Assembly: GCF_029227855.1 (NCBI RefSeq)
Contig: NZ_CP074356.1
Reading direction: 5' to 3' (one strand)
Length of the DNA: 64,000 bases
From: Escherichia coli
Lineage (GTDB): Bacteria; Pseudomonadota; Gammaproteobacteria; Enterobacterales; Enterobacteriaceae
In this document: one piece after another, positions 15,204 through 57,505 of the stretch
Layout of the letters: the number at the start of each line of letters is the position of its first letter
Position numbering within the stretch: position 1 is the first letter of the stretch
Made by a program: the position numbers and the translations under genes
The notes under the pieces: generated by a model
Databases searched by the model: none
Told to the model about the DNA's origin: nothing
The model's input: the letters and a program-made list of their open reading frames with translations, nothing else

Positions 15204-15533
15204 TTACGCCAGGTTAGCGTCGAGGAACTCTTTCAACTGACCTTTAGACAGTGCACCCACTTTGGTTGCCGCCACTTCACCGTTTTTGAACAGCAGCAGA
15301 GTCGGGATACCACGGATGCCATATTTCGGCGCAGTGCCAGGGTTTTGATCGATGTTCAGTTTTGCAACGGTCAGTTTGCCCTGATATTCGTCAGCGATTT
15401 CATCCAGAATCGGGGCGATCATTTTGCACGGACCGCACCACTCTGCCCAGAAATCGACGAGGATCGCCCCGTCCGCTTTGAGTACATCCGTGTCAAAACT
15501 GTCGTCAGTCAGGTGAATAATTTTATCGCTCAT
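15204..15533 (-). CDS. trxA: Thioredoxin 1
   Basis: Translation from ATG 15531-15533: [41 protein letters not shown], with the WCGPC active-site motif (109 aa). Confidence 0.97.
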
Positions 15534-15663
15534 ATATAACTCCACAGGAATAAGCCTGGCGTGTTGGTTTCGTTGTTGGTGTAACATTAACCAACTAAAG
15601 GTTGACTTTATTTCACCGGATACGCTTTCGTAAAGCAATAGTAAGCTGATATTCTACCACACT

Positions 15664-20615: not shown

Positions 20616-20831
20616 AGGTGTATTGCTCAATCTTCGAACGGGGGGAGGATTGTAGCAGAATCGCATTTGAATGTGACCGAGTGAAAACCGCTAACCGGAT
20701 GGCTGCGGATGTTTAAATCAGAGAGGGAAGGCCGAAACCGGAGTTCATCATGAATCCATTAGACTTAGAAAATATCGGGTCGTAACGTTGTGTTATTACT
20801 TTTTCAGAGTTTACTAAGGAGAGGTTTACTC

Positions 20832-21275
20832 GTGGCGATTAATTTCAGCCCCAAGGTTGGTGAAATACTGGAATGCAACTTTGGTAACTATCCTGTTAGC
20901 CAGAATGGACAGATCAGTACGGCGTATTACGATGGCCGCATTCCACCTGAGATGATAAAAAATAGGTTGGTTGTCGTGCTCAACGGAAAAATTAATGGCA
21001 ACGCATGTATCGTCGTTCCATTATCAACCACTCGCGACCATGACAAGTTAAATCGTGGAATGCATGTTGAAATAGCCAGTAATGTTATCAATGACCTGCA
21101 ATTCTTTGATCAGCAGATACGTTGGGCTAAAGCCGACCTGGTACAACAAGTCAGTCGAAACCGATTAAACAGAGCAAGGACTTATCGGGGTATCTTAATC
21201 AATGTTTGCCACATGAGTTGGTTGCAGACATACAGAGGGCAGTCATCAAGTCAATCAATGCCATATCGCTCATAA
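20832..21275 (+). CDS. yifN: MazF/PemK-fold (toxin-like) protein; position corresponds to yifN
   Basis: 147-codon ORF from GTG 20832 preceded by SD aaggagag (20816-20823); contains GEILECNF...NRLVVVLN...CIVVPLSTT, resembling MazF/PemK motifs; start and intactness uncertain, and I recall this locus as a pseudogene in K-12. Confidence 0.55.
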   Translation: MAINFSPKVGEILECNFGNYPVSQNGQISTAYYDGRIPPEMIKNRLVVVLNGKINGNACIVVPLSTTRDHDKLNRGMHVEIASNVINDLQFFDQQIRWAKADLVQQVSRNRLNRARTYRGILINVCHMSWLQTYRGQSSSQSMPYRS

Positions 21276-21380: not shown

Positions 21381-21408
21381 CCATATATGTCCCCCCCTCC
21401 CTGACTGA

Positions 21409-21714
<306 letters not shown>

Positions 21715-37899: not shown

Positions 37900-39441
<1,542 letters not shown>

Positions 39442-54704: not shown

Positions 54705-54793
54705 TCGGCTTTTTTAATCCCATACTTTTCCACAGGTAGATCCCAACGCGTTCACAGCGTACAATACGCCACTCTTAATAAAGGTGGCGGTTT

Positions 54794-55237
54794 ATGGCAG
54801 ATATCACTCTTATCAGCGGCAGCACCCTCGGCGGTGCCGAATATGTAGCAGAACACCTGGCTGAAAAGCTGGAAGAGGCGGGTTTTACCACCGAAACGCT
54901 GCACGGTCCGCTGTTGGAAGATTTATCTGCCTCGGGGATCTGGCTGATTATCAGCTCCACCCACGGTGCCGGAGATATTCCGGACAACCTTTCTCCTTTC
55001 TATGAAGCATTGCAGGAACAGAAGCCCGATCTTTCTGCGGTCCGCTTTGGCGCAATCGGTATTGGCAGTCGTGAATATGACACCTTTTGTGGGGCTATCG
55101 ATAAACTCGAGGCAGAACTCAAAAATTCCGGTGCAAAACAGACAGGCGAAACACTGAAGATCAACATTCTTGATCACGACATTCCGGAAGATCCGGCAGA
55201 AGAATGGCTGGGATCGTGGATTAATTTACTCAAATAA
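54794..55237 (+). CDS. mioC: FMN-binding flavodoxin-like protein MioC
   Basis: 147-aa ORF MADITLISGSTLGGAEYVAEHLAEKLEEAGFTTETLHGPLLEDL; transcribed toward oriC. Confidence 0.95.
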   Translation: MADITLISGSTLGGAEYVAEHLAEKLEEAGFTTETLHGPLLEDLSASGIWLIISSTHGAGDIPDNLSPFYEALQEQKPDLSAVRFGAIGIGSREYDTFCGAIDKLEAELKNSGAKQTGETLKINILDHDIPEDPAEEWLGSWINLLK

Positions 55238-55244
55238 GTATACA

Positions 55245-55527
55245 GATCGTGCGATCTACTGTGGATAACTCTGTCAGGAAGCTTGGATCAACCGGTAGTT
55301 ATCCAAAGAACAACCGTTGTTCAGTTTTTGAGTTGTGTATAACCCCTCATTCTGATCCCAGCTTATACGGTCCAGGATCACCGATCATTCACAGTTAATG
55401 ATCCTTTCCAGGTTGTTGATCTTAAAAGCCGGATCCTTGTTATCCACAGGGCAGTGCGATCCTAATAAGAGATCACAATAGAACAGATCTCTAAATAAAT
55501 AGATCTTCTTTTTAATACCCAGGATCC
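55245..55527. other. oriC: Chromosomal replication origin oriC
   Basis: DnaA boxes tgtggataa (R4, 55260-55268), ttatccaaa (55299-55307), tgtgtataa (R2, 55334-55342), ttatccaca (R1, 55440-55448); about 14 GATC sites; AT-rich 13-mers adjacent; lies between mioC and mnmG. Confidence 0.95.
55462..55505. repeat. oriC DNA unwinding element: three AT-rich 13-mers
   Basis: Reverse complements of gatctcttattag (55462-55474), gatctgttctatt (55477-55489) and gatctatttattt (55493-55505). Confidence 0.9.
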
Positions 55528-55615
55528 CAGGTCTTTCTCAAGCCGACAAAGTTGAGTAGAATCCACGGCCCGGGCTTCAATCCATTTTCATACCGCGTTA
55601 TGCGAGGCAATCACC

Positions 55616-57505
55616 ATGTTTTATCCGGATCCTTTTGACGTCATCATCATTGGCGGGGGTCATGCAGGCACCGAGGCCGCGATGGCCGCGGCGCGTATGG
55701 GTCAACAGACTCTGCTTTTGACACACAATATCGACACTCTGGGGCAGATGAGCTGCAACCCGGCGATCGGCGGTATTGGGAAGGGACATCTGGTAAAAGA
55801 AGTGGATGCACTCGGCGGTCTGATGGCGAAAGCGATCGATCAAGCGGGTATCCAGTTTAGGATACTAAACGCAAGCAAAGGACCGGCGGTTCGCGCTACC
55901 CGAGCTCAGGCGGATCGTGTGCTCTACCGTCAGGCGGTACGTACGGCGCTGGAGAACCAACCGAACCTGATGATCTTCCAGCAGGCGGTTGAAGATCTTA
56001 TTGTCGAAAACGATCGCGTGGTCGGTGCTGTTACCCAAATGGGACTGAAGTTCCGTGCCAAAGCCGTCGTGCTCACCGTTGGGACGTTCCTCGACGGTAA
56101 AATTCATATCGGTCTGGATAATTACAGCGGTGGCCGTGCTGGTGATCCGCCGTCCATTCCGCTTTCTCGCCGTTTGCGTGAACTGCCGCTGCGCGTTGGT
56201 CGTCTGAAAACCGGGACACCACCGCGTATTGATGCTCGAACTATCGACTTTAGTGTGCTGGCGCAACAGCATGGCGATAACCCAATGCCGGTATTCTCGT
56301 TTATGGGCAATGCGTCCCAGCATCCCCAGCAGGTGCCGTGTTATATCACTCATACCAACGAGAAAACCCATGATGTGATCCGCAGTAACCTCGATCGTAG
56401 CCCAATGTATGCAGGGGTGATCGAAGGTGTCGGCCCACGCTACTGCCCGTCGATCGAAGACAAAGTCATGCGCTTCGCCGACAGAAATCAGCATCAGATC
56501 TTCCTTGAACCGGAAGGACTGACCTCTAATGAAATTTATCCGAACGGTATCTCCACCAGCCTGCCGTTCGATGTGCAGATGCAAATCGTCCGCTCTATGC
56601 AGGGGATGGAAAACGCGAAGATCGTGCGTCCGGGTTATGCCATTGAGTATGACTTCTTCGATCCTCGCGACCTGAAACCGACGCTGGAGAGCAAGTTTAT
56701 CCAGGGGCTGTTCTTTGCTGGTCAGATTAACGGCACTACCGGTTACGAAGAAGCCGCTGCGCAAGGTTTGCTGGCCGGTCTTAACGCTGCCCGTCTGTCT
56801 GCTGACAAAGAAGGTTGGGCTCCGGCACGTTCTCAGGCGTATCTCGGCGTACTAGTTGATGACCTGTGCACTTTAGGAACCAAAGAACCGTATCGTATGT
56901 TTACTTCGCGCGCAGAATATCGTCTGATGCTACGCGAAGATAATGCGGATCTGCGTTTGACTGAAATCGGTCGTGAACTGGGCCTGGTGGATGACGAACG
57001 TTGGGCGCGCTTTAACGAGAAACTTGAGAATATCGAGCGTGAGCGTCAGCGTCTGAAATCGACCTGGGTAACCCCGTCGGCGGAAGCTGCAGCCGAAGTG
57101 AATGCTCACCTGACTGCGCCGCTTTCCCGTGAAGCCAGTGGTGAAGATCTGCTGCGTCGTCCGGAAATGACTTATGAAAAATTAACCACGCTGACGCCGT
57201 TTGCCCCTGCATTGACAGACGAACAGGCGGCGGAACAGGTTGAGATTCAGGTTAAATACGAAGGTTATATCGCGCGCCAGCAAGATGAGATCGAAAAGCA
57301 GCTGCGTAACGAGAACACCCTGCTACCCGCGACACTGGATTACCGCCAGGTATCCGGTCTTTCTAACGAAGTGATCGCCAAACTTAACGATCACAAACCA
57401 GCCTCTATCGGCCAGGCTTCGCGTATTTCTGGCGTCACGCCTGCGGCCATCTCCATTCTGCTGGTGTGGCTGAAAAAACAGGGTATGCTGCGTCGTAGCG
57501 CATAA
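55616..57505 (+). CDS. mnmG: tRNA uridine 5-carboxymethylaminomethyl modification enzyme MnmG (GidA)
   Basis: 629-aa [56 protein letters not shown] with an FAD-binding GxGxxG motif. Confidence 0.96.

What the first reader, a model, noticed from the sequence alone, without database searches (positions are those of the whole stretch)
55245..55527. oriC fully present with canonical DnaA boxes and 13-mers, flanked by mioC and mnmG
Not novel, but it is the most functionally important non-coding element in the window and it anchors the identification of the whole region. DnaA boxes R1, R2 and R4 and all three AT-rich 13-mers are read directly from the sequence.
Basis: partly seen in the sequence, partly recalled or inferred. 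Interest (0 to 1): 0.25.

Follow-up and report, generated by a model that had tools for sequence, protein, structure and literature searches.

The report
Textbook E. coli chromosomal replication origin
This is the ordinary, fully intact chromosomal replication origin (oriC) of Escherichia coli, sitting between mioC and mnmG exactly as in the reference strain, so it is correct but not new.

Summary
The observation and the interpretation are both right. The window is an E. coli chromosome segment, the reverse complement of K-12 MG1655 3,917,249-3,981,293. It is collinear with K-12 at about 99% identity, and its last 24 kb are identical to natural isolates. The mioC-mnmG intergenic region (55238-55615) differs from K-12 at one base, 55315. 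The 245-bp minimal oriC lies at 55261-55505 on the minus strand. These parts are all present: 13-mers L, M and R plus the AT cluster; DnaA boxes R1, R2 and R4; both arrays of low-affinity sites at 11-bp steps; and 11 GATC sites where 1.3 are expected. The cumulative GC skew reaches its minimum here. The unwinding element is among the two or three least stable stretches of the window. Across 44 oriCs from many Enterobacteriaceae genera, named elements are far better conserved than spacers, and there is essentially no indel between R1 and R4. The single difference from K-12 lies at the unconstrained centre of the Fis consensus, in the R2-C3 spacer. About 24% of complete E. coli genomes carry the same allele, and the position varies freely across genera. 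Origin firing itself could not be tested. Already known; low interest.

The parts
55261..55505 (-). Minimal 245-bp oriC (classical positions 23-267; K-12 3925744-3925988)
   Evidence: Ungapped correspondence to K-12 with 1 mismatch. The 245-bp definition comes from PMC5742627.
55506..55517 (-). AT-rich 12-bp cluster flanking 13-mer L (TATTAAAAAGAA)
   Evidence: mean conservation 0.95. Its role is described in PMC10380432.
55493..55505 (-). DUE 13-mer L, GATCTATTTATTT
55477..55489 (-). DUE 13-mer M, GATCTGTTCTATT. The TTGT motif that binds single-stranded DUE lies at 55475-55478.
   Evidence: 9 of 13 positions are invariant across 44 oriCs.
55462..55474 (-). DUE 13-mer R, GATCTCTTATTAG. The TTATT motif lies at 55464-55468.
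   Evidence: 12 of 13 positions are invariant across 44 oriCs.
55440..55448 (+). High-affinity DnaA box R1, TTATCCACA (read on the + strand of the window)
55403..55421 (-). IHF-binding region between R1 and R5M (GATCAACAACCTGGAAAGG), identical to K-12
   Evidence: The location comes from PMC4451416 and PMC5742627. The consensus scan was uninformative.
55396..55404 (-). Low-affinity DnaA site tau1, GGATCATTA
   Evidence: Boundaries follow from the 2-bp spacing rule.
55385..55393 (-). Low-affinity DnaA site R5M, TGTGAATGA
   Evidence: 8 of 9 positions are invariant.
55374..55382 (-). Low-affinity DnaA site tau2, GGTGATCCT
55363..55371 (-). Low-affinity DnaA site I1, ACCGTATAA
55352..55360 (-). 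Low-affinity DnaA site I2, TGGGATCAG
55334..55342 (-). DnaA box R2, TTATACACA
55308..55322 (-). Fis consensus GAACAACgGTTGTTC (GnnYAnnnnnTRnnC). Its central base, 55315, is the only difference from K-12, which has A.
   Evidence: The consensus comes from PMC10380432.
55305..55313 (-). Low-affinity DnaA site C3, TTGTTCTTT (old box R3, TTTGGATAA, at 55299-55307, overlaps C3 and C2)
   Evidence: The 20-bp R2-C3 spacing comes from PMC5742627.
55294..55302 (-). Low-affinity DnaA site C2, ATAACTACC
   Evidence: 9 of 9 positions are invariant.
55283..55291 (-). Low-affinity DnaA site I3, TTGATCCAA
55272..55280 (-). Low-affinity DnaA site C1, TTCCTGACA
   Evidence: It is the least conserved named site (0.52).
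55260..55268 (-). High-affinity DnaA box R4, TTATCCACA
54794..55237 (+). mioC (FMN-binding flavoprotein), transcribed toward and into oriC
   Evidence: No terminator-like site lies between its stop codon and oriC.
54726..54734 (+). DnaA box TTTTCCACA upstream of mioC, with a TACAAT -10-like hexamer at 54760-54765
   Evidence: DnaA repression of mioC transcription comes from PMC10380432.
55535..55562 (+). Promoter-like site TTCTCA-16-TAGAAT, directed away from oriC toward mnmG (candidate gidA/mnmG promoter)
   Evidence: This is a consensus match only.
55616..57505 (+). mnmG (gidA), transcribed away from oriC

Best explanation
This is the single chromosomal replication origin, oriC, of an E. coli strain. 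The strain is not K-12, and over the last 24 kb of the window it is identical to natural isolates such as VCSW8 and EC23-1020.

The mechanism below is inferred from established work on the near-identical K-12 sequence. DnaA sits on the high-affinity boxes R1, R2 and R4. ATP-DnaA then fills two oppositely oriented arrays of low-affinity sites spaced one helical turn apart: R5M-tau2-I1-I2 on the left and C3-C2-I3-C1 on the right. [quoted passage not shown] The adjacent AT-rich element made of 13-mers L, M and R then melts. Its T-rich strand is held by the DnaA oligomer, and two DnaB helicases are loaded for bidirectional replication. After firing, the 11 hemimethylated GATC sites are bound by SeqA, which blocks re-initiation. 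Transcription from mioC (into oriC) and from mnmG (away from it) modulates the process.

Shown here: the sequence, the spacing, the gene context, the conservation and the strand-composition switch. Inferred: protein binding and origin firing.
For: There is 1 mismatch to K-12 over the 378-bp intergenic region, and 244 of 245 bases match in minimal oriC. K-12 annotates its origin_of_replication feature at the corresponding place.

All named elements were located, with starts at 11-bp steps in each low-affinity array and 12 bp from C1 to R4. This matches the published rules of 2-bp separation and a 3-bp C1-R4 gap (PMC4451416; PMC5742627).

Minimal oriC holds 11 GATC sites, as published, against 1.27 expected. 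The DUE ranks among the 2-3 least stable 45-60-bp stretches of the 64 kb. The cumulative GC skew has its minimum at 54-58 kb, and the skew changes sign there.

The interval is found once per genome in 5424 of 5426 complete E. coli genomes and never on plasmids. The window is collinear with K-12 over the full 64 kb and 100% identical to natural isolates over 24 kb.

In 44 oriCs from many Enterobacteriaceae genera, element columns average 0.93 conservation and spacer columns 0.75 (Mann-Whitney p = 7e-13). Apart from one gap in one sequence, there is no indel between R1 and R4.
Against: Nothing in the sequence argues against it. Three limits apply. No replication data exist for the source strain, so firing is inferred. 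The boundaries of the low-affinity sites were placed from published spacing rules and K-12 identity, not from footprints. R1 and two GATC sites in the cross-genus set were fixed by the search pattern, so their invariance is not independent evidence; they were excluded from the statistic.
Confidence: 0.98

Rival explanations
1. It is a functional oriC whose regulation differs subtly from K-12. The G at 55315 (classical position 213) lies at the centre of the Fis site, where Fis compresses the minor groove. It would weaken Fis binding and shift the Fis/IHF switch and initiation timing in the roughly one quarter of E. coli strains that carry it.
For: It is the only difference from K-12 in the intergenic region. 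It falls on the central base of a perfect match to the Fis consensus GnnYAnnnnnTRnnC. The allele is common, in 1317 of 5426 genomes.
Against: The consensus does not constrain this base. The column varies freely across genera (G 23, C 14, A 6, T 1). Reviews report that Fis binding at oriC has little or no effect on initiation (PMC5742627; PMC10380432). The base lies outside every DnaA site, 2 bp from C3.
Confidence: 0.06
2. The sequence is an oriC copy that is not the active origin in this strain: a silent duplicate, or part of a cloned or engineered construct.
For: A few genomes carry two matching places, so duplicates do exist.
Against: The window is collinear with the K-12 chromosome for 64 kb in the native mioC/mnmG context. 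It is identical to natural isolates. The GC-skew switch sits exactly here. The median is one copy per genome.
Confidence: 0.01
3. The DnaA boxes, 13-mers and GATC sites cluster here by chance in an AT-rich intergenic region.
For: The 13-mer consensus alone and the IHF consensus alone are not enriched over shuffles.
Against: The GATC and DnaA-box clustering are far beyond chance. The sequence is near-identical to the experimentally defined origin. Elements and spacing are conserved across genera.
Confidence: 0.001

Closest known systems
E. coli K-12 MG1655 oriC (NC_000913.3, 3925744-3925988; RefSeq feature 3925744-3925975)
   Same: The gene context is the same: rsmG-mnmG-oriC-mioC-asnC-asnA. 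244 of 245 bases of minimal oriC match, and 377 of 378 bases of the intergenic region. Every DnaA site, every 13-mer, the IHF region, all 11 GATC sites and all spacings are identical.
   Different: One substitution, A to G in the conventional strand, at classical position 213 (window 55315). It lies in the R2-C3 spacer at the centre of the Fis consensus. It is a common natural allele.
Enterobacteriaceae oriC consensus (Klebsiella, Enterobacter, Citrobacter, Raoultella, Kosakonia and others; 44 sequences recovered here)
   Same: The architecture and the length from R1 to R4 are the same. R5M, tau2, R2, C2, R4, 13-mers M and R and most GATC sites are invariant or nearly so.
   Different: Overall identity is 75-97%. 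The differences are concentrated in spacers (R-R1, R1-IBS, I2-R2, R2-C3) and in site C1.

Membership tests
E. coli-type (enterobacterial) chromosomal origin oriC | Located in the intergenic region between mnmG (gidA) and mioC | tested here: met
   ORFs at 54794-55237 (+) and 55616-57505 (+) are NCBIfam equivalogs of MioC (245 bits, cut-off 158) and MnmG (1017 bits, cut-off 525). The order matches the K-12 annotation.
E. coli-type (enterobacterial) chromosomal origin oriC | High-affinity DnaA boxes R1, R2 and R4 match TTWTNCACA, with R1 oriented opposite to R2 and R4 | tested here: met
   Exact matches at 55440-48 (+), 55334-42 (-) and 55260-68 (-). The window holds 14 matches against 5.0 expected, with 0 of 100 shuffles reaching 14. 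Three sites fall within 189 bp.
E. coli-type (enterobacterial) chromosomal origin oriC | Two oppositely oriented arrays of four low-affinity DnaA sites separated by 2 bp (R5M, tau2, I1, I2 and C3, C2, I3, C1), with C1-R4 spacing of 3 bp, I2-R2 of 9 bp and R2-C3 of 20 bp | tested here: met
   All site sequences are identical to K-12, and their starts are 11 bp apart. The rules come from PMC4451416 and PMC5742627. The R1-R5M gap is 46 bp by my count; the review says 45.
E. coli-type (enterobacterial) chromosomal origin oriC | Duplex-unwinding element made of three tandem AT-rich 13-mers (L, M, R), each starting with GATC, plus a flanking AT cluster | tested here: met
   The exact K-12 L, M and R sequences lie at 55462-55505, and the AT cluster at 55506-17. 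The region is in the top 0.07% of 45-bp windows for low nearest-neighbour stability.
E. coli-type (enterobacterial) chromosomal origin oriC | 11 Dam/SeqA GATC sites within the 245-bp minimal origin | tested here: met
   11 GATC sites lie in 55261-55505, against 1.27 expected; the maximum elsewhere in the window is 6. The published number is 11.
E. coli-type (enterobacterial) chromosomal origin oriC | IHF site between R1 and R5M, and Fis site between R2 and C3 | tested here: inconclusive
   The IHF region is identical to K-12, but the consensus scan cannot discriminate: 516 hits against 490 expected. The Fis consensus is matched perfectly at 55308-55322, with a different central 'n' base. Binding was not tested.
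E. coli-type (enterobacterial) chromosomal origin oriC | Strand-composition (GC-skew) switch at the origin | tested here: met
   The cumulative GC skew falls to its minimum at 54-58 kb and rises afterwards.
E. coli-type (enterobacterial) chromosomal origin oriC | Supports DnaA-dependent initiation: autonomous replication as a minichromosome, or a marker-frequency peak | not testable with these tools
   There are no reads or experiments for the source strain. This is inferred from 244/245 identity to the experimentally defined K-12 origin.

The most novel reading that the evidence does not exclude
The A/G polymorphism at the exact centre of the oriC Fis site (window 55315, classical position 213) splits E. 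coli into roughly 76% and 24% of sequenced genomes. It could be a natural tuning knob for Fis occupancy at the origin, and so for how initiation timing depends on growth rate.
Probability: 0.05. Interest if true: 0.3.

Novelty: already known. Interest (0 to 1): 0.05.

Why it matters
It matters only as an anchor. It fixes the identity, orientation and replichore boundary of the whole window: E. coli, the reverse complement of K-12 3.917-3.981 Mb. Genes to the left of 55.4 kb are replicated leftward and genes to the right are replicated rightward. It teaches nothing new about replication origins.

Tried and rejected
1. Scanning the IHF consensus WATCAANNNNTTR at 2 mismatches or fewer gave 516 hits against 490 expected. 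It is too degenerate to test the IHF site, so I relied on identity to K-12.

2. Scanning the 13-mer consensus GATCTNTTNTTTT at 1 mismatch or fewer found only L and M plus one unrelated site, which is not significant. R has 2 mismatches to the consensus. The 13-mers are instead supported by exact identity to K-12 and by conservation across genera.

3. An exact search for the RefSeq 232-bp oriC string failed because of the single SNP. The ungapped comparison resolved this.

4. I looked for printed sequences of the low-affinity sites in PMC6070618 and PMC5716108, but they appear only in figures. Site boundaries were therefore placed from the published spacing rules.

5. Rfam found no RNA family in the origin region.

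6. Three of the 48 genome contigs pattern hits (L022, L031, L036) were chance matches, with 2-4 GATC sites and one box, and were dropped. Two truncated loci (L025, L030) were also dropped.

Full report
**What is there.**

Read on the minus strand, window 55238-55615 is the intergenic region between two ORFs. One is a 147-aa ORF at 54794-55237 (+). The other is a 629-aa ORF at 55616-57505 (+).

NCBIfam assigns them as equivalogs of MioC (245 bits, cut-off 158) and MnmG/GidA (1017 bits, cut-off 525). RsmG lies downstream, and AsnC and AsnA lie upstream. This is the gene order around the origin_of_replication feature of E. coli K-12 MG1655.

**Identity of the window.**

BLAST against K-12 3,917,000-3,985,000 shows the whole window is the reverse complement of K-12 3,917,249-3,981,293. 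It is collinear at 98.6-99.1% identity, apart from a few 1-2-bp indels and one 44-bp length difference that I derived from the coordinates.

The last 24 kb are 100% identical to natural isolates such as VCSW8 and EC23-1020. So this is a wild-type, non-K-12 E. coli chromosome.

**Check of the observation.**

| Element | Sequence | Window position |
|---|---|---|
| R1 | TTATCCACA | 55440-55448 (+) |
| R2 | TTATACACA | 55334-55342 (-) |
| R4 | TTATCCACA | 55260-55268 (-) |
| 13-mer L | GATCTATTTATTT | 55493-55505 (-) |
| 13-mer M | GATCTGTTCTATT | 55477-55489 (-) |
| 13-mer R | GATCTCTTATTAG | 55462-55474 (-) |

It therefore encloses the 245-bp minimal origin (55261-55505) with short flanks.

**Is it more than chance?**

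- Exact TTWTNCACA sites number 14 in the window against 5.0 expected, and no shuffle of 100 reached 14.
- Three of them lie within 189 bp. The Poisson expectation is about 0.004 such clusters per window.
- GATC reaches 11-12 per 245 bp here, against 1.27 expected and a maximum of 6 elsewhere.
- Minimal oriC holds exactly 11 GATC sites, the published number.
- By nearest-neighbour stacking energy, the 13-mer region is among the two or three least stable 45-60-bp stretches of the 64 kb.
- The 13-mer consensus alone is not enriched, and neither is the IHF consensus. These elements rest on identity and conservation, not on motif counts.

**Comparison with K-12.**

An ungapped comparison gives 41 differences over 5.5 kb, but only one in the 378-bp intergenic region. 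That one is window 55315, which is K-12 3925934 and classical position 213. It is A in K-12 and G here on the conventional strand.

Every other named element is therefore identical to the experimentally dissected origin.

Published spacing rules fix the low-affinity sites. Sites in each array are 2 bp apart, C1-R4 is 3 bp, I2-R2 is 9 bp and R2-C3 is 20 bp.

- Left array: tau1 55396-404, R5M 55385-93, tau2 55374-82, I1 55363-71, I2 55352-60.
- Right array: C3 55305-13, C2 55294-302, I3 55283-91, C1 55272-80.

Site starts are 11 bp apart, which is one helical turn.

**The single difference.**

Position 55315 lies in the 20-bp R2-C3 spacer, 2 bp from C3. It is the middle base of GAACAAC[A/G]GTTGTTC. 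That sequence is a 7-bp-arm inverted repeat and a perfect match to the Fis consensus GnnYAnnnnnTRnnC.

A 55-bp query centred on the site can seed a megablast hit only if the G allele is present. It hit 1317 of 5426 complete E. coli genomes, including O157:H7. Across 44 Enterobacteriaceae origins the column reads G 23, C 14, A 6, T 1.

Reviews state that Fis binding at oriC has little or no effect on initiation. I therefore treat this base as a neutral polymorphism.

**Independent support from other genera.**

One pattern scan of the species-representative genome collection returned 48 loci. After dropping three chance hits and two truncated loci, 43 origins remained. With the window sequence that makes 44 sequences, sharing 75-97% identity with the window. 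They come from Escherichia, Citrobacter, Klebsiella, Raoultella, Enterobacter, Kosakonia, Pluralibacter, Phytobacter, Leclercia, Shimwellia, Siccibacter and others.

- I excluded the columns fixed by the search pattern.
- Named-element columns then average 0.93 conservation, with 86 of 150 invariant.
- Spacer columns average 0.75, with 17 of 90 invariant (Mann-Whitney p = 7e-13).
- Between R1 and R4 there is one gap, in one sequence.
- 13-mer R is invariant at 12 of 13 positions, C2 at 9 of 9, and R5M, tau2 and R2 at 8 of 9 each.
- Most GATC sites are kept in 41-44 of the 44 sequences.
- C1 (0.52) and the IHF region (0.62) are the least conserved named parts.

**Replication-related context.**

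The cumulative GC skew on the + strand falls from the start of the window to a minimum at 54-58 kb and then rises. This is as expected for an origin at about 55.4 kb.

The 283-bp interval occurs in 5424 of 5426 complete E. coli genomes, with a median of one copy, always on chromosomes.

**Flanking transcription.**

- A DnaA box, TTTTCCACA, lies at 54726-34, 26 bp upstream of a TACAAT hexamer and 60 bp upstream of the mioC ATG.
- No terminator-like site lies between the mioC stop codon and oriC.
- A promoter-like site at 55535-55562 points toward mnmG.
- This fits the known picture of mioC transcription entering oriC and being repressed by DnaA. These are consensus matches only.

**Mechanism.**

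The mechanism is inferred from established work on the near-identical K-12 sequence.

1. DnaA occupies R1, R2 and R4.
2. ATP-DnaA extends from R4 through C1-I3-C2-C3.
3. Helped by the IHF bend, ATP-DnaA also extends from R5M through tau2-I1-I2.
4. The M and R 13-mers melt.
5. The T-rich strand, through its TTGT and TTATT motifs, is held by DnaA bound at R1 and R5M.
6. Two DnaB helicases are loaded.
7. SeqA then sequesters the hemimethylated GATC sites.

None of the binding or firing steps was tested here.

**Verdict.**

This is the textbook E. coli oriC with one common, apparently neutral SNP. It is already known, and its value is as an anchor for the window.

Noticed in passing
window 29042-30688 (-), indel at 29711: ilvG is intact here as a 548-aa ORF. 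The window carries 2 extra bases (AT) relative to the frameshifted K-12 ilvG pseudogene, so this strain should make acetolactate synthase II.
   Followed up: partly
window 20790-21275 (+); indels at 21041 and 21188: An uninterrupted 161-codon ORF lies where K-12 annotates the pseudogene yifN. 1-bp indels relative to K-12 restore or alter the frame.
   Followed up: partly
window ~21405-21413: The window is 44 bp shorter than K-12 in the ppiC-yifN intergenic region (K-12 ~3959832-3959876). The two BLAST segments overlap by 9 bp, which suggests a short repeat at the junction. The cause was not examined; it could be a REP-type element.
   Followed up: no
window 55274-55505 vs 55260-55268: The RefSeq K-12 'oriC' feature (232 bp, 3925744-3925975) ends inside the right array and excludes DnaA box R4. 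Anyone aligning only to that feature would miss R4. The 245-bp minimal origin from the literature covers eight of R4's nine bases.
   Followed up: yes
window 54726-54734 (+) and 54760-54765: A DnaA box, TTTTCCACA, and a TACAAT hexamer lie upstream of mioC. No terminator-like structure lies between mioC and oriC, which is consistent with read-through transcription into the origin.
   Followed up: partly
window 55272-55280 and 55405-55421: Across 44 Enterobacteriaceae origins, low-affinity site C1 (mean conservation 0.52) and the IHF-site region (0.62) are much less conserved than the other named elements. C2, by contrast, is invariant at 9 of 9 positions.
   Followed up: partly
window 34219-39441 (-), 30708-31000 (-), 15504-15603 (-): Rfam finds the rrnC operon (16S, tRNA, 23S, 5S, two tRNAs; StyR-44 in the spacer), the ilv leader region (Rev39_5p_UTR) and the trxA 5'-UTR thermometer. 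All are transcribed away from oriC.
   Followed up: no
L048 (Chryseobacterium sp. 18061 contig) and L022 (Butyrivibrio MAG): A contig labelled Chryseobacterium carries a typical enterobacterial oriC (12 GATC sites, 3 boxes, 78.7% identity to the window). This suggests contamination or mislabelling of that assembly. The Butyrivibrio hit is only a chance pattern match.
   Followed up: no
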